Shown here: positions 35,740-52,519 of the stretch, in pieces | How the letters are laid out: each line of letters starts with the position of its first letter | How positions within the stretch are numbered: position 1 is the first letter of the stretch | Origin: Naegleria gruberi | Lineage: Eukaryota | NCBI GenBank assembly: GCA_000004985.1 | Contig: GG738856.1 | Strand: one strand, 5' to 3' | Length of the DNA: 64,000 bases | Position numbers and translations under genes: made by a program | Notes under the pieces: model-generated | What the model was told of the DNA's origin: nothing | Databases searched by the model: none | The model's input: only the letters and a program-made list of their open reading frames with translations

Positions 35740-37355
35740 TCATGGTTTACTAATGAAAGGAATATTTGCAAATCCTAATTGAGTACTCATTCTTTCAATA
35801 ACTTTACAAATATGTTCATAATCTTCTTCATTGGATTCTATAGTATTTGAAATTTTATATTCCACAAGTTCAGTAATATACGGTATCAATAATAATCCAA
35901 TTCCAAAATAAATAATATCACACGATCTATTTTCCACTTTTTCAACTATTATAAATGATTGAATTGATAAATATATCGAGTATACTTACTTGAAATTCTT
36001 GTTTCGGTAAAGAATATATAACTTGGTTGAGATAGAATGAATAGATTAATATATCTTCTGAAACATTTATCAATAGCTCTGATAAATAGTTTCTCCTTAT
36101 GAAATTTCACACTTTTATATCTATTCCACATCTTTTTCATCAAGTTAAAGTACATTTCAGAATATTGTATGTATGGATCTTCCAATAGAGTAGCTGTTTT
36201 TGTTACATTCTCATTGAAGAGATGTTCCATTTCTTCTCTTGTTGGATAGATTGATAAATCTACATGACATGAAGTATGCTTGTTTTTCAATTTCTTGTAA
36301 ATGAAATCGATTGATTTTTGAACTCGTTTTTGAAAATATAATCTTATGGAATATGGTGTATTGAGAATGTTTCTTCCTTGATACCATGGATTATTTTCTT
36401 GATTATATAAATAGAATACTCTTGTGAGGAATGGACGAACAATACTTGTTCTAAATAAATGACTCACAAACAGTTTTTCAAATTCATTCAATAATTTAGG
36501 GTAATCTTTTGGAAGATACAGATCAGTTCCATAATTGGTGGTCAAATAAGGATATGCAGCATTATAATTATAAACATAACATCCTACTTGTTTAGTATTT
36601 TCATTAATTTTCACAAATGGATCAAAATTGATTTGTTCAGTTCTATATCGTTCATTGACCAATTCTACATTATAGGAATAAGAGGAAAATTTGTAATTTT
36701 CATCTTCCGTTGGTTTTTTACAAGTATCGAATCCAATATCCAAAAAGGAAGTAAGAGGATTATTACTATTAAACAATATCGAATAAATATACGAGTTTCT
36801 AATATTAGTAGTATCTACATCTTCTGGTTTGTCTTTAATATATCTCAATAGACGATGTACATGTGTAGATTTAATCAATCTATAAAAGAATTGAAAGAAA
36901 ATATAAAAATCCGAAACATTTTTCACTCCAAAACACTTTCCATAATTAATATCATAAAAAGCATGATTAAAATAGACACTAATCATCAATGCACAAATAT
37001 CATTTCTTGATGTTAAAAGTGCTCTTCTCACACATTTATCAACCTCCTCAAATTGATCATCAACTTGATTTAATTTCTCTCTCATTAATTTCTCTGTTGT
37101 TTGTTGAAATAATTCTTCATTTTCCCTACTCCAATATTCACCTCTTCTCCAATTTTCAATCTTTTCCAAGGCTCCGAATGGTAATTCTTGTTGAATCTTT
37201 CTCCTCCAAAAGTGATCGGATTGAAATATTAATTTTCTTATTTTTCTATTTAATTTGGACCAACAATTGATCACCTCCCGAAGAGTACAATATTCAGCAA
37301 TGAAGAAACAAAAAAAATTATCATCCTGCAGACATAAATTAATAAATGGTTGCAT
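35740..37355 (-). CDS. F-box-like domain protein of about 530 aa, otherwise uncharacterised. Two exons, 37355..35990 and 35945..35740.
   Basis: The N-terminus 'FINLCLQDDNFFCFFIAEYCTLREVINCWSKLNRKIRKLIFQSDHFW' is F-box-like. The donor TCAA|GTAAGT at 35984-35989 and the TAATAG| acceptor at 35946-35948 join the 468-aa and 65-aa track ORFs in frame (...TETRIS|IEKVENRSCDII...). Confidence 0.5.
35946..35989 (-). other. Spliceosomal intron (44 nt).
   Basis: GTAAGT donor and TAG acceptor, with in-frame continuation into the downstream ORF. Confidence 0.45.
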
Positions 37356-37458
37356 TTTTTTTGTAAAGAATTCAAATTATTATTTATTATTGTTGAATAC
37401 TTGTTCTATAATGATTAGTATTAATACTTGTTCTATATAATGATATAATATGAGTTTT

Positions 37459-39851
37459 TTATTCTTTCAATAACTTTTTAATCTTTTTGTAAAGATATTT
37501 AGCAGGTAAATCATTTGGATTATGTTCCATAAAATCTTTCATAATATTCTTGGCAACTTCTAATTGAGTTTCTTGTAAATAATATGAAAATGCCTTATTG
37601 TAATCAACCCATCGATTCTTTCTTTCCTTATCTTTCAATTCATACATCCATTCATCTGTTAAAGTATCTTGTAATTCACCAATTTCGAATAGATTAATTT
37701 TCTGACCTTTTTGCTTTGAAATGAGTGAACAACTAGTTTCTAATAAAAATTGTTTTCTTCCAACAAATCGAGAGGAGAATTGTTCAGATTGTGAATGAAT
37801 AATTTCTGAAATTATGAATGAAATGTTAAATTTCATTGCATGTTTCATCATTCGTTGTAAATTTTGTGATAAACTTGACATGATTGTGAAAACTTTTGAT
37901 TCTCTAGTTCCGTAATTACCACATTTGGAAGTTTGGCTATGAACTGCAATTCTAAATGAGAAATTTTGAATTAAATCTGAATTTTGTTCAAATATTCTAT
38001 CATTCTTCCATTTCTTTGATAATTGTTGTAATCTATCATATAATTTAAAAGAGAATAATAATGATTTCTGACAATGTTGTTTGACTTCTGACACACTATT
38101 CAATGATATTACAATGGATTGATTTTCAAAACTACCCAAATATGCTCCAGACTTTGAACTTGTTTGTTGTAAAATTTCAAATAATTCACTCATCAATCTA
38201 ATAACTTCATTGTTATCTAAAATTGAAAACCAATCTTCAATTCCATCCAAATAAATTAAACAAGCACTAATATCCTTACTTTCCATTCCAATTTTAAACA
38301 TTGATGATTTGGAATCTGAGACTGATTTTCTTAATGAGTTTTTCAAATCAACACTTGAAAACATTCCATATTTGGATTTGGCTGCAGAATTTGTTGATTT
38401 TCTATAAGTGGATTCTGAAACAGCTTCTTGTTCTACTGCTGTATTATCACCTGTGTGTTCTAGTTGACTCAATAAATGGGATGGAATAAAAGCTCTATAT
38501 TGTCTAATTTTGGTAACCATTTGTGAAAAACCTTGTTGTAATTGAGAAATTTCTGTAAATCTACTTGGAACAATTACCAAATCCAATTCCATTCTTGAAA
38601 GACTATCAAATAATTCAATTAAATTCCAAAATGGTTTTGAAATTCTATAAGAGGAATAAATTCCCAAAAATGTTCCACCCAAAATTATCATTATACCACA
38701 AACAATGCCAACAATGATGGCAATGACCATATTTCCTATAAATGTCCATCTTGGAATGGTTACTGCAAATATCCAATCCAGCCCTGTTTGTGTGCAATAT
38801 CTGTAAACACTAATTTTGTAGAACGTATTCGAAACATCACCGAATGAATTGCAAGGTAACTGAAAATTTGGATAACTTTGATTAACCCAATGATATAAAT
38901 TTCTACTGTTATCATCCATTTGATCAACTGTAGTACTAATATTGAATGAATCAGGATAGCTCGCTAAATTATTGTAAAAACTTTACAAAAACAAATTACA
39001 ATCAACTTACTTGCAACTACAATTTGTGAACTAGTTTCAATAATCAATCCAAATGAACCACTATTCTCTCCCTGAGTAACATTCTTCAAGAAGAAAGTCA
39101 AATCAGAAACTGAAATTGCCATTTTCAAATACCAATCATAACCTTTAGCTCTTTGTGAATTTTCCTTCGAGTTGACTAAACCAACAAATCTCATTGGTAA
39201 ACCATTTAATTCATATAAATGAGTAAAGAATGGTTGACCAGGTTTCTTATAAATCATATTAGCAATAGCTGAATCAGAAGTTGGTGGTAAAGTTGCTAAA
39301 TAAATTGGACATGCTGGGAATATGACACATAATTTAACTGTAATTCCACTAATTGGTGAGATGAAAACTTTGATGAGTGGTTCATTAATGACATATCCAA
39401 TGGCATTGCTTTCATAATTGTAAACTGTCAATTCTTTCATTATGGATTTGTGAAAAGTAGTTTCGGATAAAGTAAACGAAGCTATTGAGGAATCTGCAGT
39501 GTTGATATCTGAAACATTGGTGAATGAATTCATGATTTGATATTTGGCAGTTTGAGAGGCAATCACGAATTGATTAAAAGTTTGATCAACGTATGAAATT
39601 AATTTATCCTGTTTTAAGGAAACTATTGAATCTGACATTTCTTGTAATGAAATACTAAACGAAAGTATCCAAATAATACTTTGAATAAATACACTGCATG
39701 TTACTGCTATTATAATAATGGAGAGAATGCAAAATTTAATGGACACTAATTTTCTATTCGAATCTAATTCATTCATTGAACTTTCAGACGAATCTTCATC
39801 TATTGTTTTATCTCCTTTTGATAGAGTGGTAATGGGTTGAATTCTTGCCAT
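37459..39851 (-). CDS. Receptor-type membrane protein with an N-terminal signal anchor, an extracellular domain, a transmembrane segment, and a degenerate (probably inactive) class-III cyclase-homology domain. Two exons, 39851..39011 and 38927..37459.
   Basis: TM stretches 'ILSIIIIAVTCSVFIQSIIWILSF' and 'IAIIVGIVCGIMIILGGTFLGIY'. Cytoplasmic 'ISACLIYLDGIEDWFSIL...' and 'FRIAVHSQTSKCGNYGTRESKVFTIMSSLSQNLQRMMKHAMKFNISFIISE' follow the cyclase-domain pattern (RIGxHxGxVxxGxxG...ASRMES) with key residues changed. The donor GCAA|GTAAGT at 39005-39010 and the CAG| acceptor at 38928-38930 join the 295-aa and 486-aa track ORFs in frame. Confidence 0.55.
38928..39010 (-). other. Spliceosomal intron (83 nt).
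   Basis: GTAAGT donor and CAG acceptor. Of the two candidate acceptors, only this one is in frame. Confidence 0.5.
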
Positions 39852-40915
39852 TTTTCTTTATGATTTTCTCTGAAATCTGTTTCAAATTCAATAAGAAGTA
39901 GTTCAACTATTATTGTAGTTTTATGTAATGTTGACTGATTGAAGTGTAGTTTATGTGTGTAGTACAAACTAAATATATATGTTTGTGCTTGGATTTCCTT
40001 TCTCTCTCTCTAGGGTTGAGAATATAATTTACGTTTTGGATGTTCCTGAAACATCAATAGACATCATCAACATTAATATTTTTGTCAATAGAATTAAAAA
40101 GCACTGTACTGAGTAGTAAACACGAATGAGGCACATAAAATTGAATATAAAACTTGAAGCCCCACAAGTGTGTTAACCTCTGATGAACTTGCATGGTTGG
40201 GTATATTTTATTTTCCGATCAAAACTGTTTGCAAACAATGAAAAACAATAAATTTTGTCGTCATGCACTAAATTAAAAAAATATTTATTTTCCAACCTAA
40301 TGATGAATTGATTCTTCATCTTGATAGAGAGAAGATTGTGTCAACCTCTCACAATGATCCTTAATTTATATTTGTATTCTTTAATTTCAAATTACTTGAT
40401 CAAATTTGACTTGGCCGATATTAAACTCACCCCGAATGTGCAACTTCATTTCTCAACTTCATTCTACAAGAGATTGTTTTGATTCAAAATTTGTGCATTT
40501 TCAAAGATTTAGACTTCTTAATCAATTATTTAATTTTGGAACGATTCAAAGTTGTATGAATCGAATAGTATCTTCTCAAATTATCCATCAATTTTCAAAG
40601 ATAGTGTTCATGGCTCAGAATATATTGGAGGTCTGAATCTCTATGAACCCATCAGTGTTTGTAGATAAATCACTACCTATCAAAACTTTCCAATTGAGGT
40701 ATAAATAATCACAATAGGACAACTCTATAGATTGCAAAATTTAATATTTGTGTTTTAAAAAGCTCGATTAGCACAGAATTAAACAATATCTCTTGAAATC
40801 AATCCAAAAATGTACAAAAAATTAGTTCACCGAATAATAAAAACACAAATTTTCATACACCTTTACCTTCTTTCGAATAATAATTTGTAGTTGAAAACTA
40901 GTTTCTTTCAAAAAA

Positions 40916-41435
40916 ATGTATAAAGTTAAAACCACCACTGATCCAATAACCATTACAAATAATAGTTTGATAATAGCAGAGTCAACTGAAATAAAAGAGG
41001 GAAGTGTAACAGGTGTTGATAATTCATCTCAAATACTTTCGTCTGCTTCAAGTTCTTCATTATCAGCTCTGACTGGAAAGAGTTTAGTTTCGTCTTTACT
41101 TTCTAATATTTATTCTATCATTATTACATTTCGTCCAAAAGAAAGTTTGAATAATTCAACTTCTAAAATTGTTTGGGCGATAATTTTTCATATTTATTTA
41201 ATTTATAATTCAATTGTTGTTTCGTCATTTCCAATACCTTATTCGAGACAAGACGAATCTAAATTATGGGGTTATATTCCAGCATGGATTTGGAGAGTTT
41301 TATTCTTTCCAATGAATTTTGGATGTGAATTTTATCCATATGAAGCAATTGTAACATTATCAATACTATTTCTAGTTTTGGAAATTGCAACTATTTTTGG
41401 ATTTTATTGGTGTAGATGGGCTTCTAAAAAAGGAG
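40916..41435 (+). CDS. Candidate 5' exon of the downstream cyclase gene. It is a multi-TM segment of about 173 aa. It could instead be a separate small membrane protein.
   Basis: ATG at 40916. It is hydrophobic, in the same frame as the 41606 ORF, and ends at a GAG|GTAAAT donor at 41436. The interval to the 'ctcctaatatttcag' acceptor at 41603 is 168 nt (3n), so splicing would be in frame. Confidence 0.35.
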
Positions 41436-41605
41436 GTAAATTATATGAAAAAGGTTTGTTTAATGGGTATTAAAATTTAAATAATTTTTAAAATAATTTT
41501 TCAATAGTTAAACAAATCATTCAAGCAATTGTTATCTTTTATAGAATTTTTACCATTTTTATAATTTACATTCATAGTTTATTACTTTCTCCTAATATTT
41601 CAGAT

Positions 41606-44600
41606 ATGACTTCCTATTTTTATCCATCTGTTTCATTTACTAATACTCCACATATTGTATTTGCTTGTGTTGGTGTGATTGGTATTATACTAACTTTAGT
41701 AATTACCATTTTTGGAATTTATTTAACAATTGAAACAATTCCACCAACTTCATACAAAACATTCTTTTCACTTGCTTTAATTTATCCATTCTGTTCATTA
41801 ATTGTCACTAATCAAATAAGTGTCATTGCAAATATTATTTGTAGTGAAAAATTCTCCTTCATTTCCTCAATTATTAAGATTATTCTAAATATGGTAGTAT
41901 TCTGTTTAATGTTTAGAACATTTCCATTTTTTAGAAAATGGGAAAATTGTTTCTTCTTGGGAATTGTTGGTTCTAAAATTTTGGCGCCAATTGTTCCCTT
42001 AGTTTTACATTTTGTTAAGGGAAATGACATTATTGGCGGATCATTGACAGGTGTCACATTTATTGCAGCCTTAATTGGTTTCGTATTAGCAAGTCTATTT
42101 TCCTATATTTATTCCAGTTTACATTTGAGACATGTTAGAAAATTATTGGATTACAAATCAGAAACAAGTAATACTTTACAATATTTGGAACATTCAAAAG
42201 ATGTACAAAATTCAATTTCACTCTTTCTTCGATTTTCATTAACTCAAACAAGAAATTTGACAAATTTAGAAGGAAGTGATTTTGATTTTGCAAAATATTT
42301 TGTTTTACAAAATGGAAAAAACATGTCATCTGCTGAAATGTTAATTACCTGTTCAATGTTTATTGCATTTGGTCAATTGGAGGGATATGATAAAAGTCAA
42401 GCATGTGCACTTGGTTTAGCATGTTTACAAAAAGCAGCAAAGAATTCACCCAATCAAATTCAAATATTTCACATCATGCTAAGAATGGAAGAATTGGAAC
42501 ATTTAGCCTTTCATGGAAATAATTTGGAAGTTTTAAGAAGATTGGAAACTTTAGAAAAAAAGGTAAAAATTTTAGGAAGAGCTCACAAAACATTTTTTAA
42601 AGAATTATTGAATGAAAAGCCAAAAATTACAAAATTGGAAAATATCAATCGTACATGTTGTGTACTTTACAATGAATGTGATAAGATTTATGAGAATTTA
42701 TTGAATATGAGTAGAAATAATAAGGCACTTTTGAAATCTTATGCTTCCTATTTGGAAAAATATAAATGGGAATTCCAATTAGCTCAGGAATTTTATGAGG
42801 AAGCTCAAGAGGCTGAAGAAGATAAGAAAACTGCACAAATTATATTGAAATCTAGACGAAAGTCAATGAAAGGTGAAATTCCACAACCAATTCCAGAATC
42901 AGCAAGTAGAAGATTCAGTATCACCAATACTTCATATATGAATGATGAAAATTGGGATTCGGTTAGTTGTGCAGCAGCTGAAGAGAATGAAGATAGAAAG
43001 GATAATATCATTAGAAGTGCTATTAATACTCCTATGAATACTTTGATTTATTCATTATCTTTCTTATTGATTAGTTTAGTTTCAATTATTGCTTTGGCTA
43101 TCATTGCACCAATGGCATTGAGTTATTCTGCAACCATTGATATTAGAATGTCAATGCAAGAGAAAGTATGCTTAATGTCAGGTGTTCCTTACAAGATGCT
43201 TTCACAAATCAAAGCCCTCCAATCAGAACATGCCTTGAGAGGTTTCATTTCTCCTCAAATGAAAAATTCAACCTATACTCAAACTAATCTCATGTTAGAT
43301 TTAACAGAAGAAGTAATAAGTGCAGGAAGTAATGGTAAACTAATTCCAGAAGTAGTCCAAGCCTATTTAAATAGTGAATATATTGTAAGCATTCCAATTA
43401 AGAATTATTCACTTGAAAATACTTCAATTATTCCTGAATATTCACAAACTAATACTTCACTATCTTTCTATATGGGTACTATTCTAGCTCAGGGTAGAAA
43501 TGTTCTGTTACAATTTTCAGATTTGGAAACTTTGACAACTCATTTGGATAACAATTATCCATTTTTATTTTTCTATTACAATAGAATGGTCATGACAAAT
43601 GCATTTAACAAATTTTGTACAACATTTGTGAATGCTAGTGTTGATTCATTGGATCAGAATTTCAATTCTTTATTAATTGCTTCTTGTTCAGTTATGGTAG
43701 TTTATCTATTTTTGGCAATTTCTTACTTGTTAGTAATGCGTATGCATACTAAGAGAATTACTATGGAAATTAAGGGCGTATTCAAAAAGATTCCAAAAGA
43801 TGAAATTGGAAAAATTTATCATAATTTTGATAAGAAATTGGACGATACCATGAATTCATTGAATTCATCCATATTGAAACCTAATCGTTTAATTATTTTA
43901 TCAGGTTGTGTTACCATTCTAATAGTTTGTATGGGTATTATTTTGATTCTCATTGAGTATAAACTAAATTCAGATAGAGCTTCACTTTCAATGAATAATC
44001 TCAGTATAATTAATAGTGTATTATATAGAGTTTCAAGTGTTAATTTCAGAGTTAATGAAATGATTCAAAGATCAAAATATAGTCAATTGACTACTTTTAA
44101 TCAATTGAGAGATTCAAGTGTAACGGATATTCAAGCTATTCAAAAATATTGGTATTCCATAATTTTGGGAAATGATAAATCTGGTTATCAATCAGCAGTG
44201 GTTGGAAAATATTCAGATATTGATGCTCAATTGAGTAATACATGTAATGATACTATTGAAATGAATTTTGCAAACACTACTAATGATAACTTATGTTTTG
44301 GATTGAATGATTTCATTACTGAATTCATTTCTAGAGCTACTGAATTGAATGAAGAAGCTTTTAAACTATCTGATTCGACAAGTGACTTGACAAGAAGATA
44401 TATTGATAGACTTTTCTATCTTTCTCAAGTATTGACTCAACAATTATTAGGATTTGTATCTAAATTTGTTGCTCATGAAAAAACTGCTCAAACTTACATT
44501 ACAGCAACTTCAATTTCTGTTACAATTATTGTAATCATTGTAATGGGAGTATTGTGTTTCAATTCTTTACTTAGTTTTTGGAAGGAACGATTCTGCTTGA

Positions 44601-45862
44601 GAATGCTATTGAATTATCTTAATATGGAAGTGATTGAAAACACTTTCCTATTGAAGGAATATGTCATGTCCAATTCTGTTTCATTTTCAAATACTACAAC
44701 AAAAATTATGGGAAAGCTCAATAAGATTCATTCAGAGGATAGCTCAACATGTGGTGATGAATCCATTCTAATGGTCAAAACAGTACTCAATGGAGGTGTC
44801 GATGCAAGTATTCTTTGTAATAGAGAAGGAAGTATTACAATATTTAATAATGCCGCTGAGGAAATGTTTGGTTATGCAAGAGCTGATGTTTTAGGTGATG
44901 CAATTCAAACTCTATTCACAGAAGAATATTCATCTCGATTGACCAAATTAATGAGTTCAGAATCAACATGTAAAGGTGATACCTTCGAAGCTATTGGATT
45001 ACGCAAGAACAAGTCAACCTTCAACTCAAAAGTCAGTGTTTCAGTCACAACCTACGATAAGAAACCCATGTTAATTGCCTTTATTAGAGATGTAACTCCT
45101 GAAAAGAAACTAAATTTGTTAATTTGTGAAGAAAAAAAGAAGAGTGAAGATTTATTATTGAACATTCTGCCACAAGCAATGGCTTCACGATTGAAGAATG
45201 GTGAGACGAATCTGTACGAAAAATTCAATGATATTAGTGTATTTTTTAGTGATATGGTTGGTTTTACATCGATGAGTTCTGGAATGCAACCAAGTGAGCT
45301 AGTTCAAATGCTCAACTCAATTGTGCAGGGTTATGACAAGTTGACAGAAGTTCATGGAATTGACAAGATTAAAACCATTGGTGATGCTTATTTTTGTGTT
45401 GGTGGACTTCAGGCAAGCAAAACTTCTGATCATCCAGAAAAGATGTTGGCATTTTCAATTGACATTATGTCATTTTTAAGAAGAACTAATGCTTCCACTA
45501 ACAAACCAGTTAATATTAGAGCAGGAATTCACACAGGTGAAGCAGTAGCTGGCGTAATTGGATTTAAAAAGTTTGCCTATGATTTGTGGGGAGATACTAT
45601 TAACACAGCTTCAAGAATGGAGTCAACCGGAGTTCCAGGAAGAATTCAAATTTCCAGAACAACCTATGAAAGAGTTTACGATTTGGGTTTTGAATTTGAA
45701 GAGAGAGAACAGGAAGTGAAAGGAAAAGGAAAAATGAAATGTTACTTGTTATCGAGTAAACATCATGAAAATCCAATGAATTTTCAAGATGATGATGTGA
45801 ATATTAGAACATTTCAGAGTACAGAGTTTTTGAGTTTGAAAGAACATCACGATTGTAAATAA
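41606..45862 (+). CDS. Multi-pass transmembrane nucleotide cyclase (adenylate/guanylate, class III) with a PAS domain immediately upstream of the catalytic domain.
   Basis: Several predicted TM helices lie in the first 1000 aa. The PAS-like block is 'ILCNREGSITIFNNAAEEMFGYARADVLGDAIQTLFTEEY'. Cyclase catalytic motifs are 'FSDMVGFTSMSS', 'KIKTIGDAYFCVGGL', 'AGIHTGEAVAGVIG' and 'YDLWGDTINTASRMESTGVPGRIQIS'. Confidence 0.8.
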   Translation: MTSYFYPSVSFTNTPHIVFACVGVIGIILTLVITIFGIYLTIETIPPTSYKTFFSLALIYPFCSLIVTNQISVIANIICSEKFSFISSIIKIILNMVVFCLMFRTFPFFRKWENCFFLGIVGSKILAPIVPLVLHFVKGNDIIGGSLTGVTFIAALIGFVLASLFSYIYSSLHLRHVRKLLDYKSETSNTLQYLEHSKDVQNSISLFLRFSLTQTRNLTNLEGSDFDFAKYFVLQNGKNMSSAEMLITCSMFIAFGQLEGYDKSQACALGLACLQKAAKNSPNQIQIFHIMLRMEELEHLAFHGNNLEVLRRLETLEKKVKILGRAHKTFFKELLNEKPKITKLENINRTCCVLYNECDKIYENLLNMSRNNKALLKSYASYLEKYKWEFQLAQEFYEEAQEAEEDKKTAQIILKSRRKSMKGEIPQPIPESASRRFSITNTSYMNDENWDSVSCAAAEENEDRKDNIIRSAINTPMNTLIYSLSFLLISLVSIIALAIIAPMALSYSATIDIRMSMQEKVCLMSGVPYKMLSQIKALQSEHALRGFISPQMKNSTYTQTNLMLDLTEEVISAGSNGKLIPEVVQAYLNSEYIVSIPIKNYSLENTSIIPEYSQTNTSLSFYMGTILAQGRNVLLQFSDLETLTTHLDNNYPFLFFYYNRMVMTNAFNKFCTTFVNASVDSLDQNFNSLLIASCSVMVVYLFLAISYLLVMRMHTKRITMEIKGVFKKIPKDEIGKIYHNFDKKLDDTMNSLNSSILKPNRLIILSGCVTILIVCMGIILILIEYKLNSDRASLSMNNLSIINSVLYRVSSVNFRVNEMIQRSKYSQLTTFNQLRDSSVTDIQAIQKYWYSIILGNDKSGYQSAVVGKYSDIDAQLSNTCNDTIEMNFANTTNDNLCFGLNDFITEFISRATELNEEAFKLSDSTSDLTRRYIDRLFYLSQVLTQQLLGFVSKFVAHEKTAQTYITATSISVTIIVIIVMGVLCFNSLLSFWKERFCLRMLLNYLNMEVIENTFLLKEYVMSNSVSFSNTTTKIMGKLNKIHSEDSSTCGDESILMVKTVLNGGVDASILCNREGSITIFNNAAEEMFGYARADVLGDAIQTLFTEEYSSRLTKLMSSESTCKGDTFEAIGLRKNKSTFNSKVSVSVTTYDKKPMLIAFIRDVTPEKKLNLLICEEKKKSEDLLLNILPQAMASRLKNGETNLYEKFNDISVFFSDMVGFTSMSSGMQPSELVQMLNSIVQGYDKLTEVHGIDKIKTIGDAYFCVGGLQASKTSDHPEKMLAFSIDIMSFLRRTNASTNKPVNIRAGIHTGEAVAGVIGFKKFAYDLWGDTINTASRMESTGVPGRIQISRTTYERVYDLGFEFEEREQEVKGKGKMKCYLLSSKHHENPMNFQDDDVNIRTFQSTEFLSLKEHHDCK

Positions 45863-45893
45863 ACAAGTATCTTGTTGGTATTCGAAAGTTTTA

Positions 45894-46286
45894 TTAGAAA
45901 CATTCAAAATTTAAAGAATACAAATTCCAAGCAGATCTAGCACCATTGACAATAACATAAATTTGATCTTTCATTTGGTCTAATCCATTGTAAACATAAG
46001 TAATTCCATTTTCAACACTTGTAGCTCTGTAATCAAATTCGGAAAAACTTGGAATTGAATTCTTTTTCACAGCGACATTGACAGCACTTCCAGAACTAAC
46101 ATTCAAAATGAATTTAACTTGAGAACATTTCAAATCAGAGATGGAAGCTTGATAATATTTTGGATTATTTTGAACATAATCTGAAATCCAATTTCCTTTC
46201 CAGTGGTTGACTTGTTGAGAGTTGACCATGAGAGTAAAGCTCATTAGAATAAAAAGGAGCAATAATACGAAACTGAATCTTGACAT
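45894..46286 (-). CDS. Small secreted protein (130 aa) with an N-terminal signal peptide. Function unknown.
   Basis: 'MSRFSFVLLLLFILMSFTLMVNSQ' is signal-peptide-like. Confidence 0.4.
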   Translation of the reverse strand: MSRFSFVLLLLFILMSFTLMVNSQQVNHWKGNWISDYVQNNPKYYQASISDLKCSQVKFILNVSSGSAVNVAVKKNSIPSFSEFDYRATSVENGITYVYNGLDQMKDQIYVIVNGARSAWNLYSLNFECF

Positions 46287-47586: not shown

Positions 47587-50001
47587 TTATTGTAAATCCT
47601 TCTCTTGTTCAGAGTGGAGGGCACGAATGAAATCTTCTTTCAATATTTGTGAAACATCACTAATTAGAAAATTTTCTTTCGTCCTTAGTGATACTCGTGG
47701 AGCAATTATTGAGACTCGAGTGAGAAGAAATAAATTCAAACGTTCAATAACTTGCTCGACAGTGTCATTCTGTGATATGTCAATTAAAACAGAAACACGA
47801 GAACCTTCCAATTTGATTTTGATTGTATGAATTTGAATTTTCTCTGTGGAAACCTTGACTGGTGTTTGATGCTGCATAGGTGGTGAATCGTTATAATATA
47901 TCAAAGTCATCTCTAGAGGAGAAAAGTTGTCAGGATAGAGAGGTCTTAACTCAATAGGAAATTCAGGAGTTTTCATTTGGTTATTAAAAACTTGTCTAAT
48001 TCTGAAATATTCTTCATTGGCTTCACTTGCATATTTGTTCTGATTACATTTTAGAAAGTAAGAAATTCGCAGTTCGTGCGCAGGTTCAAAATTTGGTTCA
48101 CTTTGCAATACTCTATCAATGTAACCAAGTACCTTTTCAGTGTGTTTCAACTTTGCATGAATGGAAGCTATGAATATTAAAATTGTAGAATTATTGGAAT
48201 AGTTTTTCAATAATTGCTCAGCATACGAAAGACCATTCTCATATTCATTGAAAATAACTGATAATTGAGAGGCAATCATACTCAAAACATCTGATTCCTC
48301 AAAATGGTCCAGCATTTGCTTGAAAATTTTCTTGGCTTTTTCAATCTCTCCAATTTCAGCATAGTACTGAACTAAATAAACATAGATTACCAAGCAATTG
48401 GGTTCCAATTCTCTTGCTTTTAGAAAATCTGGGAATGCTTTAAGCTTTTCTTCTTTTGTTTTACCAACTTGATAAATAATTATTCCTCTTTTCAAGTAAT
48501 AATGAGCTAAATCATCTAAACTGTTCCCATATTTTTCCAATATTTTAGTGTATTCAGCAATAAGGATGAATGTTGAGCCCATTTGCTCCAAAATACCCAA
48601 TTTGGCATTAATGACAGGAATGGAGAAATGTGATTTCAAGGAATTATCCAAACATTGTAGAGCTTGCTTAGTGTTACCCTTGTAGAGATGTAAGAATCCC
48701 TTCAATTGCTCCAACACATGACCACTGTTCGGATCTTGGTGTGTATTGAATTTTCTTGAGAGAAATTCCAAAGACTCAAGCAGTGTTAATGCCTTGGAGA
48801 TGTTTGGTAACTTTCCTCCATAAACTCTCTCCCAAACATGTATATCATCTCTTGATAAAAACATGGCCAAAAGCAAGCCAACACAGTATTTGATTCTAAT
48901 TTCAACAGCATCATCAATAGATAATTTCATATAATATTTGTCAAGTATTTCTATTGAATCTTCAATACTATTGGCATTCAAATGAGAAAGTATTCTATTC
49001 ATTTCTAAAACTCCTGTAAATTCTCTATCACCTATTATTTGGAGATTGTTGCATATGATTAATCTAAGATTATTAATGGTTAATATTTCCATTGCATTCA
49101 ACGATGATAATCTCTCCTTCTTATCATATGTTAGAAAGGATAATAATAGTAGCTCAAAGAATTGGTCAACCTCCCTCGTAGAGATTTCATTGATGAATTT
49201 TGCTTGAAACACTTCACTCCATGTATTCTCAATGGTTGCTTGTGTATTTTCGAGTTTTAAATTTAGAAATCGAAAATCACATTCATCTACAATATCCTTA
49301 AAACTAATTGTTGACTCGGGGAAGAGTATTTTGAAAAGTACAACACCCATACTCCAGCAATCGACTTTGTAATCATAGAGTCTATGTTTAATTGATTCAG
49401 GTGGTAAATATTCAAATGTTCCCCTATGTGTTTTCTTGGTGTTTTCAGTTTGTAAGGTTTCTCCAAAATCAGCCAATGCAATCTCAATAAATGTTTCATT
49501 TTCTTCATCAAATGATTTGACAAGAATGTTTGAAAGTTTGATATCACAATGAACAAGATTATGTTTGTGTGAAATATTGACAGCAATACATAATTGTGTC
49601 ATGATTTGACCAATTAGAAAATCAGTCAATCTCTTTCCTCTTGATGTGAAATATCTTTCAATAAATGTTTCCAAATCTCCATACTTGTAAAATGGCATTA
49701 CAATCCCAATATTGGAATGATGATTAATGTATTCCAAACTCTCTACCAAATATTCACATACAATACTCTTTCTCAAATTAAATATCTTCAATTCCTTTTC
49801 AATAATGAATTCTCTTTCCTCTTCTTCTAATAAATTAATAATTTTCAATGCAATTTCATGGTTTGAACAACGATCAAAGCATCGATATACAACTCCGTAA
49901 CCTCCTTCTCCAATAAACAGCGGATTCAAAAACCTGTCACAAAAAGAAGAAGGGAATGCATAAGGTTGACGTGACATTTTTTTGTAATGTGACACTGTCA
50001 T
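47587..50001 (-). CDS. Protein kinase with a C-terminal TPR-like repeat region and a small beta-grasp-like tail. Paralogue A. The true start is probably the second ATG at 49977.
   Basis: 'IGEGGYGVVYRC', 'HCDIKLSNILV' and 'DFGET' kinase subdomains. The downstream helical repeats are TPR-like. Alignment with the plus-strand paralogue favours 'MSRQPYAFPSSFC' as the N-terminus. Confidence 0.7.
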   Translation of the reverse strand: MTVSHYKKMSRQPYAFPSSFCDRFLNPLFIGEGGYGVVYRCFDRCSNHEIALKIINLLEEEEREFIIEKELKIFNLRKSIVCEYLVESLEYINHHSNIGIVMPFYKYGDLETFIERYFTSRGKRLTDFLIGQIMTQLCIAVNISHKHNLVHCDIKLSNILVKSFDEENETFIEIALADFGETLQTENTKKTHRGTFEYLPPESIKHRLYDYKVDCWSMGVVLFKILFPESTISFKDIVDECDFRFLNLKLENTQATIENTWSEVFQAKFINEISTREVDQFFELLLLSFLTYDKKERLSSLNAMEILTINNLRLIICNNLQIIGDREFTGVLEMNRILSHLNANSIEDSIEILDKYYMKLSIDDAVEIRIKYCVGLLLAMFLSRDDIHVWERVYGGKLPNISKALTLLESLEFLSRKFNTHQDPNSGHVLEQLKGFLHLYKGNTKQALQCLDNSLKSHFSIPVINAKLGILEQMGSTFILIAEYTKILEKYGNSLDDLAHYYLKRGIIIYQVGKTKEEKLKAFPDFLKARELEPNCLVIYVYLVQYYAEIGEIEKAKKIFKQMLDHFEESDVLSMIASQLSVIFNEYENGLSYAEQLLKNYSNNSTILIFIASIHAKLKHTEKVLGYIDRVLQSEPNFEPAHELRISYFLKCNQNKYASEANEEYFRIRQVFNNQMKTPEFPIELRPLYPDNFSPLEMTLIYYNDSPPMQHQTPVKVSTEKIQIHTIKIKLEGSRVSVLIDISQNDTVEQVIERLNLFLLTRVSIIAPRVSLRTKENFLISDVSQILKEDFIRALHSEQEKDLQ
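49445..49709 (-). repeat. Arm 1 of a ~265-bp inverted repeat inside the kinase domain of paralogue A. It is about 98% identical to arm 2.
   Basis: The reverse complement of 49456..49709 matches 50321..50575 with about 5 mismatches in 255 nt. The matching segment encodes GIVMPFYK(Y/F)GDLETFIERYFTSRGKRLTDFLIGQIMTQLCIAVN(I/L)SHKHNLVHCDIKLSNILVKSFDEENETFIEIALADFGET. Confidence 0.8.
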
Positions 50002-50032
50002 TCTGAAAAAGAATCCAAAAAAATCTGGTCAA
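49978..50032. promoter_or_regulatory. Inferred shared bidirectional promoter or overlapping 5' region. The start codons of the two head-to-head kinase paralogues are only 31-55 bp apart.
   Basis: Geometry only. No motif is claimed. Confidence 0.25.
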
Positions 50033-52519
50033 ATGATCAGTCAAACTCAACTTCCCTCATGTTTTGGCAGTCGTTTTTCCAATCCTACACCAGTTGGAAA
50101 AGGAGCATATGGCACCACCTACTCATGTATTGATACACAAAATGATGATCAACAAATAATTGCTTTAAAAGTGATGCAACCAAGTGAAGGGACTGGTGAT
50201 ATTGCACTTGTAGAGAGAGAAGAAGAAATTTTCACAGCCATGAAGAATGTTCAGTGTGAATATATTGCCAAGAGTATGGAATTTCTAAATTATTTCGAAA
50301 GTGATGGTAGTGGTGGTTACATTGGAATTGTAATGCCATTTTACAAGTTTGGAGATTTGGAAACATTTATTGAAAGATATTTCACATCAAGAGGAAAGAG
50401 ATTGACTGATTTTCTAATTGGTCAAATCATGACACAATTATGTATTGCTGTCAATTTATCACACAAACATAATCTTGTTCATTGTGATATCAAACTTTCA
50501 AACATTCTTGTCAAATCATTTGATGAAGAAAATGAAACATTTATTGAGATTGCATTGGCTGACTTTGGAGAAACCTTTCGAACTGATCACACAACCAATA
50601 CAGATAAAAAGGGAACAGATGACTACTTACCACCAGAGGCCTTTGATGGCAAGTACGGATTCAAGATTGATTGCTGTAGTATGGGTGTTGTCCTTTTCAA
50701 ATTGCTTTGTCCACCAACTGATGTATCTATTAGAAACTATTTGGGAGAATGTCAAACTAAATACAAACACAAACAGCGTAACATTTTCTTTAGCCATTAT
50801 TGGTCAAAGAAGTTGGCGAAATACATGTCTGGTATTGAATATCTCAAAGATCAACCATTACTACTTTCAATGGTGAATGGATTTCTAACTTACGACAAGG
50901 AAAGTAGACTCACCATATTGAATGCTCTCGATCTATGTTGCATGATTATTATGATGCACATACATGGACAGAATAATAGTGTAAACTTAGACAATTTGGA
51001 GAATCCTTCACCTGTTTTGATACTATATGATCAATTATCATTGATTTCAGATTTCAATAATGGTTCAATGGAATTGTTATCCAAATATTACAATGAAACG
51101 AAGCAAGGAAATAGTTTAGGTATTGCATACATGGTAGGATTAATCTTTTGTAGCAGTCTATTGAAAAGAGATTTCAGAATTTGGGAATTTCAATTTAATT
51201 TACAAACACCCATTACCGATACAGCAACATTGGACAAAATGATACAAGATCTTGATCAACTATCACTGAAAATTAAGACCAATGAGCCATACTTGGGCTT
51301 TATATTTGAACAATTACATGCCATTTCACTAATGAACAAGAAAATGCCTGAAAAATCTTTACAAAGATTGGAAAACTCTACAAATTCATTCTTCACATTG
51401 GCATGCCAAAAAAAAAAGTTACTACTTGTAGAATTATTGAATGGAATGACTTATTCGTTGGTAGATGAATATTCCAAGCTAATCAAACTTTATGGTGACA
51501 AGAGTATGCTCTCTGGATACTTTTATTACAAAAGGGGTGTAATGTTATTCACCCTTTCTAATGATCATCAAAATGGTATAGCTGACTTGATACATGCAAG
51601 GAATTTATCACCAAATAGTTTGGGATTATATGCAATTATGGTAAACTGCTTTTTAACTATTGGCAGTATTGAAAATGCAAAACAAGTGTTTGAGCAAATG
51701 TTGTTATTGTCTGAGCACTTTGAGATTAATAGGTTAAACTTTATTGCAATGTTTTTATCCAATTGTTTAGGTTATTTGGATAAAGCATTGGAATATGGTG
51801 AAAAACTTACTAGTCAAGAACTGTATAGCAAGGACCCTGTATTACTTCTCTTTTTATCCAGAATCTGTAGTAATAGAGGCGATAGCTCAATGGAATTGGG
51901 TTATATAGAAACGGCATTGGATATAGATCCACATTGTTATCAAGCTCACCAAATGAAAATCCTATTTTATAGAGCAGCTTTGGATTTCACAGCAGAAAAA
52001 GAAGCTTTGCTCAAGTATACAGCTCTGAAAAGGCAAAACCTTTTGCATACCTCTGAATTTCCCATTGAACTTTTACCACTATTACCAGATGGCTCACCTC
52101 TTCCAATATTATTACTAAATGAACCTGAAAAGGATGTTACAAGAATTAAGGAAATTACTTTTAAGGAAGCTGAGAAGACTGTTCAACAATTTGAAACCAT
52201 TCAACCATCACTAATGCAAGAACCTACCACAAATGATTCAATTCTTTCACCAGAAATCATCATGCAAATCAAAGTGAAATTCAAAGGGAAAAACAATGCT
52301 GTTTTCATTGATATTTTGAAAACAGATACAGACATTCGTCAAGTATTAGATCGCTTGAATAAGATTGGAAACGAAAAGAGTACAGCATATGTTAATAGAG
52401 TGGCATTTTCAATAGTGAAAGACGATGATTGTATTTTAATTACATCAATTCATCAATTATCTAAATATGATGAAGTAGTGGCTCTCACAAGTGATGAAGA
52501 AAAAGAGTTTTGGGCGTAA
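50033..52519 (+). CDS. Protein kinase with a C-terminal TPR-like repeat region. Paralogue B, transcribed divergently from A.
   Basis: ATG at 50033. Same architecture as paralogue A. Outside the conversion tract the two are clearly diverged. Confidence 0.7.
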   Translation: MISQTQLPSCFGSRFSNPTPVGKGAYGTTYSCIDTQNDDQQIIALKVMQPSEGTGDIALVEREEEIFTAMKNVQCEYIAKSMEFLNYFESDGSGGYIGIVMPFYKFGDLETFIERYFTSRGKRLTDFLIGQIMTQLCIAVNLSHKHNLVHCDIKLSNILVKSFDEENETFIEIALADFGETFRTDHTTNTDKKGTDDYLPPEAFDGKYGFKIDCCSMGVVLFKLLCPPTDVSIRNYLGECQTKYKHKQRNIFFSHYWSKKLAKYMSGIEYLKDQPLLLSMVNGFLTYDKESRLTILNALDLCCMIIMMHIHGQNNSVNLDNLENPSPVLILYDQLSLISDFNNGSMELLSKYYNETKQGNSLGIAYMVGLIFCSSLLKRDFRIWEFQFNLQTPITDTATLDKMIQDLDQLSLKIKTNEPYLGFIFEQLHAISLMNKKMPEKSLQRLENSTNSFFTLACQKKKLLLVELLNGMTYSLVDEYSKLIKLYGDKSMLSGYFYYKRGVMLFTLSNDHQNGIADLIHARNLSPNSLGLYAIMVNCFLTIGSIENAKQVFEQMLLLSEHFEINRLNFIAMFLSNCLGYLDKALEYGEKLTSQELYSKDPVLLLFLSRICSNRGDSSMELGYIETALDIDPHCYQAHQMKILFYRAALDFTAEKEALLKYTALKRQNLLHTSEFPIELLPLLPDGSPLPILLLNEPEKDVTRIKEITFKEAEKTVQQFETIQPSLMQEPTTNDSILSPEIIMQIKVKFKGKNNAVFIDILKTDTDIRQVLDRLNKIGNEKSTAYVNRVAFSIVKDDDCILITSIHQLSKYDEVVALTSDEEKEFWA
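50319..50587 (+). repeat. Arm 2 of the inverted repeat (see 49445..49709).
   Basis: Both copies carry the same off-frame track ORF, 'MLSI(F/Y)HTNIILFIVISNFQTFLSNHLMKKMKHLLRLHW', confirming near identity at nucleotide level. Confidence 0.8.

What the first reader, a model, noticed from the sequence alone, without database searches (positions are those of the whole stretch)
37459..45862. Divergent pair of membrane proteins from the nucleotide-cyclase family: a pseudo-cyclase receptor and a PAS-containing active cyclase
The minus-strand gene 37459..39851 encodes a single-pass receptor whose cytoplasmic part follows the class-III cyclase fold but has lost the canonical metal- and substrate-binding residues. 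About 1 kb away on the other strand, the gene at 40916/41606..45862 encodes a multi-pass membrane protein with a PAS domain directly fused to an intact catalytic domain (FSDMVGFT / IGDAYF / ASRMES). An inactive cyclase-like receptor next to an active one suggests a duplicated sensor module. The pseudo-cyclase could act as a heterodimerisation partner or regulator, because class-III cyclases are obligate dimers.
Basis: partly seen in the sequence, partly recalled or inferred. Interest (0 to 1): 0.5.

Follow-up and report, generated by a model that had tools for sequence, protein, structure and literature searches.

The report
Dead-cyclase receptor beside PAS adenylyl cyclase
Two neighbouring Naegleria gruberi genes both belong to the cyclic-nucleotide cyclase superfamily, one a sensor receptor with a disabled catalytic site and one an intact PAS-regulated adenylyl cyclase, but they are distant relatives that probably sit together by chance.

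Summary
The window is Naegleria gruberi.

**Minus gene** (NAEGRDRAFT_65007; 39851..39011 + 38963..37459; 781 aa). It is a two-TM receptor: dCache-like ectodomain, HAMP-like/CTE-like linker, diverged class III cyclase homology domain (CHD) and a TPR-like tail.
- Pfam misses the CHD. A family profile hits CyaB/Cya2 at E≈7e-11.
- Foldseek hits for a paralogue model are all class III cyclases (TM 0.76).
- Both metal aspartates (Y518, Q562) and the substrate lysine (S558) are replaced. One of the Asn/Arg pair is also lost.
- The degeneracy is family-wide, in at least 113 relatives from Naegleria, Willaertia and unnamed sources.

**Plus gene** (FM179; corrected to 40916..41453 + 41508..45862; 1630 aa). 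It is a 12-TM TmcB-like protein with a PAS domain and a class IIIa CHD. All six catalytic residues are intact, with K/D adenylyl specificity.

**The local-duplication reading fails.**
- The two CHDs are 14% identical and fall in different subclasses.
- Nothing else in the two proteins aligns, and there is no DNA repeat.
- The closest paralogues are unlinked, and the N. lovaniensis homologues lie on different contigs.
- With about 100 cyclase genes per genome, one chance adjacency is expected.

Heterodimerisation is untested. If it occurred, both composite sites would be dead. Interest is modest.

The parts
39011..39851 (-). Exon 1 of the pseudo-cyclase receptor gene (NAEGRDRAFT_65007). It encodes aa 1-280 plus the first base of codon 281: the N-terminal cytoplasmic stretch, TM1 (aa 36-66; 39654-39746) and most of the ectodomain.
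   Evidence: ORF and splice junction read directly. 100% identity to NCBI XP_002679850. Hydropathy scan.
38964..39010 (-). 47-nt intron (GTAAGT...TTTAG) of the pseudo-cyclase gene.
   Evidence: The spliced product matches the first 778 aa of P0001.
37459..38963 (-). Exon 2 of the pseudo-cyclase gene (aa 281-781 plus stop). Homologues of 772-816 aa end at the same point, so the stop at 37459-37461 is the real end.
38749..39653 (-). Ectodomain, aa 67-352 (interrupted by the intron). It is dCache_1-like.
   Evidence: The family ectodomain profile A5 aligns to residues 176-338 of cyanobacterial P0178 (hhalign prob 97.5%, E 8.5e-12). Pfam places dCache_1 at 151-335 of that protein. Weak direct hits: MCP-like_PDC_1 at 2.6e-5 in 2 members, and PDB 7k5n sensor domain at E 0.08. 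The query alone has no Pfam hit.
38650..38748 (-). TM2, aa 353-385.
   Evidence: Hydropathy scan. Helix in the AF2 models.
38458..38643 (-). HAMP-like helix-loop-helix (aa 388-435) plus a cyclase-transducer-like motif YRAFIPSHLLSQLE (aa 436-449). This is the best conserved segment of the family (50-59% identity).
   Evidence: Pfam HAMP at only E=0.1. AF2 shows a helix-loop-helix. The motif aligns with FMHYIPRDLV of an intact N. lovaniensis relative. Region-wise identities.
37741..38277 (-). Degenerate class III cyclase homology domain, aa 510-688. Y518 replaces metal Asp 1. S558 replaces the substrate Lys. Q562 replaces metal Asp 2. T640 is a retained class IIIb-type Thr. The Asn/Arg pair reads as N648/M652 or as Q647/R651, depending on a one-residue register.
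   Evidence: for the alignments. for the fold. for the family-wide columns. for coordinates.
37462..37659 (-). C-terminal helical, TPR-like tail, aa 716-781 (DEWMYEL...).
   Evidence: Four helices with pLDDT 70-89 in the paralogue model. Weak TPR_1/TPR_2 hits in two members.
39852..40915 (.). 1,064-bp intergenic region between the two divergent start codons. No ORF of 80 aa or more and no repeats.
40916..41453 (+). Exon 1 of FM179 (NAEGRDRAFT_78958): aa 1-179 plus the first base of codon 180.
   Evidence: Collinear with the paralogue FM180 through ...WASKKGGKLYEK. Model built.
41454..41507 (+). 54-nt intron (GTTTGT...AATAG) of FM179.
   Evidence: Only this acceptor gives an open frame. The restored 33 aa (VKQIIQAIVIFYRIFTIFIIYIHSLLLSPNISD) match FM180.
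41508..45862 (+). Exon 2 of FM179 (to the stop). Total product 1630 aa with 12 hydrophobic segments.
   Evidence: 49% identity over 1616 columns to FM180..
42536..42829 (+). TmcB-type TPR region, aa 523-620. Predicted cytoplasmic, between TM8 and TM9.
   Evidence: Pfam PF25474 at E 3.7e-11, 43.5 bits against a cut-off of 27.
44801..45097 (+). PAS domain, aa 1278-1376.
   Evidence: Pfam PAS_9 at E 3.7e-14 and PAS at 8.8e-7.
45152..45193 (+). Linker/cyclase-transducer motif LLLNILPQAMASRL, aa 1395-1408, between the PAS domain and the CHD.
   Evidence: Aligned with the helix preceding the catalytic domains of AC8/AC9.
45218..45754 (+). Intact class IIIa cyclase catalytic domain, aa 1417-1595. Residues: D1428, D1472 (metals); K1468, D1538 (adenine specificity); N1545, R1549 (transition state).
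   Evidence: Pfam Guanylate_cyc at E 1.2e-55. Alignments to AC8/AC9 C1 and C2. Coordinates.

Best explanation
These are two independent members of the very large class III cyclase superfamily of Naegleria gruberi. They lie head-to-head most likely by chance.

The plus-strand gene (FM179) encodes a 1630-aa protein. It has 12 TM segments and a TmcB-like region, followed by a cytoplasmic PAS domain, a transducer helix and a class IIIa catalytic domain with all six canonical residues. It should work as a homodimeric adenylyl cyclase whose output is set by the PAS and membrane modules (inferred).

The minus-strand gene encodes a 781-aa bacterial-type receptor: dCache-like ectodomain, TM, HAMP-like and transducer motif, CHD, TPR-like tail. 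The CHD keeps the class III fold but has lost both metal-binding aspartates, the substrate lysine and one of the Asn/Arg pair. It therefore cannot make cAMP or cGMP by the canonical two-metal mechanism (inferred).

This protein belongs to an old, diversified family in Heterolobosea in which the degeneracy is universal. Intact dCache-HAMP-class IIIb relatives also persist in Naegleria. The strongest conservation lies in the HAMP/transducer segment. The most likely mechanism is therefore that ligand binding to the dCache domain is transmitted across the membrane to a dimeric, non-catalytic CHD scaffold. That scaffold, together with the TPR-like tail, would signal through protein-protein contacts rather than through a cyclic nucleotide (inferred, not shown).
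For: - Organism and gene identity.
- Plus gene: domains, catalytic residues, corrected gene model.
- Minus gene, CHD homology: family profiles against PDB give CyaB at 7e-10/7e-11 and Cya2 at 7e-11. hhalign against the plus-type CHDs gives prob 97.8%, E 8e-13. hhalign against an intact N. lovaniensis dCache-type cyclase gives prob 98.4%, E 5.5e-15 over 311 collinear columns.
- Minus gene, fold: the Foldseek top 50 are all class III cyclases. For the better model, TM is 0.76-0.77 to CyaB and CHD pLDDT is 70-90.
- Family-wide degeneracy: among 113 CHDs, the metal-Asp1 column holds D in only 2 of the 70 listed rows (both distant members) and mostly K/R/Y/H/L. The Arg column is L/M/I in 101 of 113.
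- Family size and taxa: 128 representatives at E<1e-30. Named members come from N. gruberi, N. lovaniensis, N. fowleri and Willaertia magna.
- dCache ectodomain.
- Conservation profile: HAMP/CTE 50-59%, CHD 28-35%, ectodomain 21-30%.
- No relationship between the neighbours beyond the CHD superfamily.
- Adjacency absent in N. lovaniensis.
- Chance estimate: the Naegleria pangenome paper reports at least 81 cyclases (PMC9928731). From my own recollection, the N. gruberi genome paper reports about 108 cyclases among about 15,700 genes. N²/G then gives about 0.4-0.7 adjacent pairs per genome by chance.
Against: - No biochemical data exist for either protein.
- The AF2 model of the window's own protein is poor (mean pLDDT 53.8). 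The good CHD model is of a 34%-identical paralogue.
- The register around the Asn/Arg pair is ambiguous by one residue, and in the ungapped register the query keeps an Arg (R651).
- An acidic residue (D520) sits two positions after the lost metal Asp and is D/E in most close relatives. Non-canonical metal binding is therefore not excluded.
- Including this window, 2 of 7 inspected family loci have an intact CHD gene within 10 kb. That is slightly more than the ~0.5 expected, so weak linkage cannot be ruled out.
- No flanking synteny with N. lovaniensis was detected at all. The non-conservation test therefore has limited power.
Confidence: 0.75

Rival explanations
1. Functional pair. The pseudo-cyclase receptor heterodimerises with, or otherwise regulates, the adjacent FM179 cyclase, and the divergent arrangement gives co-expression from a shared 1-kb promoter region.
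For: - Class III cyclases are obligate dimers, and heterodimers with one degenerate site exist, such as mammalian C1/C2 and soluble guanylyl cyclase alpha/beta (established knowledge).
- The two genes are divergent and 1,064 bp apart.
- In N. lovaniensis another family member (P0006) lies ~1.6 kb from an intact cyclase gene.
Against: - The CHDs are 14% identical and of different subclasses. Known heterodimers are between close paralogues.
- The pseudo-CHD lacks both metal Asps and also the Lys plus one of Asn/Arg. Both composite sites of a heterodimer would be dead, so only inhibition is possible.
- The adjacency is absent for the N. lovaniensis homologues of both genes.
- 5 of 6 N. lovaniensis family loci have no cyclase within 10 kb.
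- The chance expectation is about 0.4-0.7 adjacent pairs per genome.
Confidence: 0.07
2. The minus-strand CHD is not dead. It cyclises a nucleotide, or performs a related nucleotidyl transfer, using non-canonical residues, for example D520 and E560/Q562 for metals and R651 for the transition state.
For: - An acidic residue is conserved two positions after the lost Asp1, and the FEN motif is nearly invariant in close relatives.
- The query has an Arg at the canonical position in the ungapped register.
- The class IIIb-type Thr and the GNxG hairpin are retained.
Against: - Asp1 is replaced by Tyr/His/Leu/Lys/Arg across the family, and the Lys is never conserved.
- R651 is not conserved in paralogues (S, C, A or Q at that column).
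- From my own knowledge of the field, no known class III cyclase works without both metal aspartates.
Confidence: 0.08
3. The two genes arose by local (inverted) duplication of one cyclase gene, followed by divergence.
For: Both carry a class III CHD and lie head-to-head. True head-to-head duplicates do exist elsewhere in the same window: the kinase pair at 47587-52519.
Against: - There is no similarity outside the CHD.
- The CHDs are 14% identical and in different subclasses.
- No DNA repeat is present.
- Each gene has much closer paralogues on other scaffolds (FM180 at 49%; P0003/P0004 at ~30% over the full length).
Confidence: 0.02
4. The minus-strand gene is a decaying pseudogene or an annotation artefact, not a functional receptor.
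For: It has no Pfam hit. The public model is a chimera of 1249 aa.
Against: - The reading frame is uninterrupted, with one clean intron.
- It is collinear over its full length with many paralogues and orthologues of the same length.
- Motifs are strongly conserved, and the HAMP/CTE segment is 50-59% identical.
Confidence: 0.03

Closest known systems
Bacterial-type dCache-HAMP-class IIIb adenylyl cyclases. Examples: M. tuberculosis Rv2435c, and the 'bacterial-type adenylate cyclase' with a Cache domain reported as the only Cache protein of Naegleria (Upadhyay et al. 2016, PMC4822843).
   Same: The order of modules is the same: TM, dCache ectodomain, TM, HAMP, transducer motif, CHD. The CHD is closest to class IIIb-type structures such as CyaB, Cya2 and CyaC. 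An intact Naegleria relative with this layout exists at L003:6949-8433.
   Different: The window protein and its whole family lack the metal aspartates and the substrate lysine, and they carry an extra TPR-like tail. Neither the dCache nor the CHD of the window protein passes Pfam thresholds. The family therefore appears to have gone uncounted as Cache proteins.
Degenerate halves of pseudo-heterodimeric class III cyclases: the non-catalytic (forskolin) site of mammalian AC C1/C2, and the soluble guanylyl cyclase alpha/beta pair.
   Same: A class III fold in which some catalytic residues are missing, while the domain is kept for dimerisation and regulation.
   Different: In those systems each half keeps a complementary subset of residues, so that one site is active. 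Here neither a C1-like set (two Asp) nor a C2-like set (Lys, Asp/Thr, Asn, Arg) is complete. The protein is also a separate receptor, not a second domain or a close paralogue of its neighbour.
PAS-regulated class IIIa adenylyl cyclases, and the Naegleria paralogue FM180 (NAEGRDRAFT_68774).
   Same: FM179 is 49% identical and collinear with FM180, and 29% identical with N. lovaniensis C9374_000279. It has the PAS-linker-CHD arrangement, and its catalytic domain is closest to mammalian AC8/AC9/AC5 and Rv1625c.
   Different: The long 12-TM N-terminal part, with a TmcB-type TPR region, is not found in the solved or characterised cyclases matched here. The PAS ligand is unknown.
Dictyostelium TmcB (tiny macrocysts protein B) family, Pfam PF25474.
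   Same: The TPR_TmcB region is matched at E 3.7e-11 within a multi-pass membrane protein.
   Different: From my own recollection, untested here, TmcB itself carries no PAS or cyclase domain. Only the TPR segment was matched.

Membership tests
Class III nucleotidyl cyclase (minus-strand gene) | The catalytic-domain fold (beta-alpha-alpha-beta-beta-alpha-beta core) is recognisable by sequence profile and by structure. | tested here: met
   Family profiles against PDB: CyaB at 7e-10/7e-11, Cya2 at 7e-11. hhalign to plus-type CHDs: prob 97.8%. Foldseek top 50 are all class III cyclases, with TM 0.76-0.77 for the paralogue model. Pfam on the query alone gives no hit.
Class III nucleotidyl cyclase (minus-strand gene) | Two metal-binding aspartates. 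| tested here: not met
   Asp1 is replaced by Y518 in all four independent alignments. Asp2 is replaced by Q562, or by N561 in one register. The Asp1 column across the family holds D in only 2 of the 70 listed rows, both distant members.
Class III nucleotidyl cyclase (minus-strand gene) | The substrate-defining pair: Lys plus Asp/Thr for ATP, or Glu plus Cys for GTP. | tested here: not met
   The Lys position is S558 (or G557). The second position is T640, the class IIIb-type Thr, and is retained.
Class III nucleotidyl cyclase (minus-strand gene) | The transition-state Asn and Arg, four residues apart. | tested here: inconclusive
   The reading is either N648/M652 (gapped register) or Q647/R651 (ungapped). 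One of the two is missing in either register. In the family the Arg column is L/M/I in 101 of 113.
Class III nucleotidyl cyclase (minus-strand gene) | Cyclase activity as a dimer. | not testable with these tools
   This needs an enzyme assay or complementation. No multimer prediction was available.
Class III adenylyl cyclase, subclass IIIa (plus-strand gene, FM179) | A catalytic domain above the curated threshold, with all six catalytic residues and the K/D adenine pair. | tested here: met
   Pfam Guanylate_cyc at 188 bits against a cut-off of 21.9. Residues D1428, D1472, K1468, D1538, N1545 and R1549 align to AC8/AC9 C1 and C2. Best PDB matches are AC8, AC9, AC5 and Rv1625c.
PAS domain (plus-strand gene) | A match above the Pfam gathering score, located N-terminal to the CHD. 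| tested here: met
   PAS_9 at 53.3 bits (cut-off 27) and PAS at 29.4 bits (cut-off 22.6), at aa 1278-1376, about 40 aa before the CHD.
dCache_1 extracellular sensor (minus-strand gene) | Homology of the periplasmic-type region between two TM helices to a double-Cache domain. | tested here: met
   The family profile A5 aligns to the dCache_1 region of P0178 with hhalign prob 97.5%, E 8.5e-12. The homology covers only the C-terminal ~160 aa. The query alone has no Pfam hit, and the AF2 ectodomain has low confidence.
HAMP domain (minus-strand gene) | A match to the HAMP profile directly after TM2. | tested here: inconclusive
   Pfam HAMP at E=0.1, 13.4 bits against a cut-off of 25. AF2 shows a helix-loop-helix at the right place. 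The segment aligns with the same region of the intact N. lovaniensis relative.
Locally duplicated gene pair | The neighbours are each other's closest relatives, or share residual DNA or protein similarity beyond a superfamily domain. | tested here: not met
   BLASTP finds nothing. The CHDs are 14% identical. There is no repeat in 37000-46000. Closer paralogues are on other scaffolds.
Conserved (syntenic) gene pair | The adjacency is kept in another Naegleria species. | tested here: not met
   The N. lovaniensis homologues are on contigs PYSW02000008 and PYSW02000009, each without the other within 10 kb. Caveat: no flanking synteny was detectable either.

The most novel reading that the evidence does not exclude
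Heterolobosean amoebae carry a large, so far undescribed class of dCache receptors whose cyclase domain has become a pseudoenzyme. On ligand binding these receptors would act as dominant-negative or allosteric partners of active class III cyclases. The head-to-head FM179 pair would be one such regulated unit, giving combinatorial control of cAMP.
Probability: 0.08. Interest if true: 0.6.

Novelty: new variant of a known kind. Interest (0 to 1): 0.3.

Why it matters
Naegleria has one of the largest cyclase repertoires known, and almost none of it has been characterised.

First, part of that repertoire is a family of bacterial-type dCache receptors with a uniformly dead catalytic site, so counts of 'cyclases' overstate cAMP-producing capacity. 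Second, Cache-type extracellular sensors look more numerous in this eukaryote than the single case reported (PMC4822843). Third, the result defines a pseudoenzyme family that could be tested for non-catalytic signalling.

It also corrects two public gene models. XP_002679850 is a chimera with the downstream gene. XP_002679716 (FM179) lacks about 450 N-terminal residues. The gene pair itself carries no special meaning on present evidence.

Tried and rejected
1. Pfam on the minus ORFs gave only HAMP at E=0.1, so family profiles were needed.
I used the exon-2 ORF alignment instead.
3. AF2 of the window's own 486-aa ORF with 6 sequences was poor (pLDDT 53.8). The third homologue search, run with a 47-sequence profile, returned only 11 proteins and so did not deepen the permitted alignment. 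The second AF2 job was therefore spent on the full-length N. lovaniensis paralogue. That gave a good CHD but a low-confidence ectodomain.
4. The ectodomain profile against PDB gave only E=0.08. The dCache assignment rests on hhalign to one bacterial protein.
5. The look-up of encoding contigs holds no N. gruberi gene records. The neighbourhoods of FM180 and of the N. gruberi paralogues could not be inspected, so N. lovaniensis loci were used.
6. Literature searches for the locus tags and for 'pseudocyclase' terms found nothing relevant. The N. gruberi genome paper is not held, so the meaning of the 'FM' names and the figure of ~108 cyclases rest on my recollection.
7. I first read the 843-aa divergent neighbour of the N. 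lovaniensis FM179 homologue as a possible syntenic pseudo-cyclase. It is an unrelated coiled-coil protein.
8. My first by-eye alignment kept D520 as the metal Asp. Four profile alignments instead anchor on the following Gly and place Y518 there.

Full report
**Source and gene models**

The window is AT-rich (GC about 0.27-0.33) and comes from Naegleria gruberi. The minus-strand product is 100% identical to XP_002679850 (NAEGRDRAFT_65007). The plus-strand product is 100% identical to XP_002679716 (NAEGRDRAFT_78958, 'FM179').

The minus gene is 39851..39011 plus 38963..37459, with a 47-nt GTAAGT...TAG intron, and encodes 781 aa. The public 1249-aa model joins it to the next ORF (35949..37355). 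All homologues are 772-816 aa and end where the stop at 37459 lies, so the fusion is probably an artefact.

For the plus gene, alignment with the paralogue FM180 runs through exon 1 up to ...GGKLYEK. It then needs 33 more residues before MTSYFYP. A 54-nt intron (41454..41507) restores exactly those residues. The result is a 1630-aa protein collinear with FM180 (49% identity) and with N. lovaniensis C9374_000279 (29%). The public FM179 model (1179 aa) is truncated at the N-terminus.

**Plus gene (FM179)**

Pfam finds three domains:

| Domain | E-value |
|---|---|
| TPR_TmcB | 3.7e-11 |
| PAS_9 | 3.7e-14 |
| Guanylate_cyc | 1.2e-55 |

A hydropathy scan finds 12 hydrophobic segments. This topology puts the TmcB TPR region, the PAS domain and the CHD in the cytoplasm.

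Against solved structures the CHD is closest to mammalian AC8, AC9 and AC5 and to Rv1625c (E 1e-67 to 1e-48), which makes it class IIIa. The alignments show both metal aspartates (D1428, D1472), the adenine-specifying K1468 and D1538, and the transition-state N1545 and R1549. The enzyme is predicted to be a homodimeric adenylyl cyclase controlled by its PAS and membrane modules (inference).

**Minus gene: cyclase fold**

Pfam sees nothing significant in the query and only sub-threshold Guanylate_cyc matches in some paralogues. Profile and structure methods give a clear answer:

| Test | Result |
|---|---|
| 6-sequence family profile vs PDB | CyaB at E 7.3e-10 |
| 47-sequence family profile vs PDB | CyaB and Cya2 at E 7e-11; every hit at E≤0.001 is a class III cyclase |
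| hhalign, family CHD vs plus-type CHDs | prob 97.8%, E 8e-13, 14% identity |
| AF2, window ORF | mean pLDDT 53.8; Foldseek top 50 all class III cyclases |
| AF2, 34%-identical N. lovaniensis paralogue | CHD pLDDT 70-90; matches CyaB at TM 0.76-0.77, E 6e-11 |

**Minus gene: catalytic residues**

Four independent alignments were compared: to CyaB twice, to the plus-type CHDs, and to an intact Naegleria relative.

| Canonical residue | Window protein |
|---|---|
| Metal Asp 1 | Y518 |
| Substrate Lys | S558 (G557 in one register) |
| Metal Asp 2 | Q562 (N561 in one register) |
| Substrate Asp/Thr | T640, retained (class IIIb-type Thr) |
| Asn/Arg pair | N648/M652 or Q647/R651, by a one-residue register |

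At least four of the six residues are missing in every register.

**The degeneracy is family-wide**

A profile search of 1.84 billion representatives found 128 proteins at E<1e-30, many matching over the whole length. Named members come from N. gruberi (at least 6), N. lovaniensis, N. fowleri and Willaertia magna. More distant metagenomic relatives carry N-terminal ankyrin repeats.

Across 113 aligned CHDs the Asp1 column is mostly K/R/Y/H/L, with Asp in only two distant members among the 70 listed rows. The Arg column is L/M/I in 101 of 113.

The family is nevertheless constrained. The HAMP-like/transducer segment (YRAFIPSHLL) is 50-59% identical between paralogues. The corresponding figures are 28-35% for the CHD, 21-30% for the ectodomain and 14-33% for the linker.

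**Sensor domain and origin**

The ~290-aa region between the two hydrophobic segments (aa 36-66 and 353-385) is dCache-like. The family ectodomain profile aligns to residues 176-338 of a cyanobacterial sensor protein (prob 97.5%, E 8.5e-12). Pfam places dCache_1 at 151-335 of that protein. Weaker direct hits point the same way. Three family members carry a NIT ectodomain instead.

In N. lovaniensis, an intact relative lies ~1.6 kb upstream of the paralogue P0006. It has the same dCache end, TM, HAMP-like segment and FMHYIPRDLV motif. Its class IIIb CHD carries D, K, D, T, N and R. It aligns collinearly with the family profile (prob 98.4%, E 5.5e-15).

The pseudo-cyclase family is therefore best read as a degenerate offshoot of bacterial-type dCache-HAMP-class IIIb cyclases. 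This is the type Upadhyay et al. reported as the single Cache protein of Naegleria (PMC4822843).

**Is the pair meaningful?**

Most of the evidence says no:
- BLASTP finds no similarity between the two proteins.
- The CHDs belong to different subclasses and are 14% identical.
- The sensor modules are unrelated.
- There is no direct or inverted DNA repeat in 37000-46000.
- Each gene has far closer paralogues on other scaffolds.
- In N. lovaniensis the best homologues of the two genes sit on different contigs, with no partner within 10 kb.

Some evidence points weakly the other way, or limits the tests:
- Of six N. lovaniensis family loci, only one has a Pfam-detectable cyclase within 10 kb. Counting this window, that makes 2 of 7 loci against about 0.5 expected by chance, which is a weak lead.
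- No flanking synteny between the window and the N. lovaniensis loci was detectable, so the conservation test has limited power.

Naegleria has at least 81 cyclases (PMC9928731). From my recollection the figure is about 108 of about 15,700 genes in N. gruberi. About 0.4-0.7 adjacent pairs per genome are then expected by chance.

The same window does contain a true head-to-head duplicate for contrast. The two kinase genes at 47587..50001 and 50033..52519 share a 286-nt, 95%-identical inverted tract.

**Mechanism**

- Shown: the fold homology, the loss of catalytic residues, the module order, the family distribution, and the integrity of FM179's active site.
- Inferred: FM179 makes cAMP as a homodimer. 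The pseudo-cyclase receptor transmits dCache ligand binding through its conserved HAMP/transducer segment to a non-catalytic dimeric CHD and TPR-like tail, which signal by protein contacts.
- If the pseudo-CHD paired with an intact CHD, both composite sites would lack essential residues. The only possible effect would be inhibition. Nothing here tests whether such pairing happens.

**Verdict**

The 'pseudo-cyclase next to an active cyclase' description is right. The duplication reading is not supported, and functional coupling is unlikely. The pseudo-cyclase dCache receptor family is a modestly new variant of a known kind. The gene pair itself is ordinary.

Noticed in passing
window 47587-52519 (inverted-repeat arms 49425-49710 and 50321-50606): Two head-to-head paralogous protein-kinase/TPR genes have start codons only 31 bp apart. 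They are 37% identical overall but share a 286-nt inverted repeat at 95% identity over the catalytic-loop region. This looks like recent gene conversion between divergent duplicates.
   Followed up: partly
window 35949-37470: The public model XP_002679850 (1249 aa) splices the pseudo-cyclase gene onto the downstream 468-aa ORF, which has its own ATG and no Pfam hit. Family members all end at the stop at 37459, so the fusion is probably an annotation artefact. The 3' end of the downstream gene also differs from the plain ORF, which suggests a further intron.
   Followed up: partly
L003:6949-8433 (N. lovaniensis PYSW02000001.1): A 494-aa gene encodes an intact class IIIb-type cyclase with the same dCache end, TM, HAMP-like segment and transducer motif as the pseudo-cyclase family. 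It lies ~1.6 kb upstream of the pseudo-cyclase paralogue P0006, on the same strand, with one small gene between them. It could be the ancestral type, or a tandem intact/dead pair.
   Followed up: partly
L007:8416-9033 (N. lovaniensis PYSW02000011.1): A 205-aa gene directly upstream of the family member P0026 matches the N-terminal ~200 aa of P0006 (30% identity, E 2e-11). It is probably a partial tandem copy of a family member.
   Followed up: no
proteins P0069, P0073, P0093 and similar (metagenome-derived, ~1160-1190 aa): Distant relatives of the family carry ~400 aa of N-terminal ankyrin repeats ahead of the dCache-like/TM/degenerate CHD part. Their source organisms are unknown.
   Followed up: no
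window 15484-19244 and 21065-21947: Runs of N (assembly gaps) totalling 4,644 bases. The long 'ORFs' listed across them are artefacts.
   Followed up: no
window 24748-30142 (minus strand): Two adjacent ORFs carry the Nup98 autopeptidase domain (27194..30142) and the Nup96 domain (24748..27123). This is presumably a single Nup98-96 gene split by a short intron or frame change.
   Followed up: no
window 40916-45862: UniProt gives this gene the name FM179 and its paralogue the name FM180. From my recollection, 'FM' marks the flagellar-motility-associated gene set of the N. gruberi genome paper, which would suggest a flagellum-related role. The paper is not held, so this could not be checked.
   Followed up: partly
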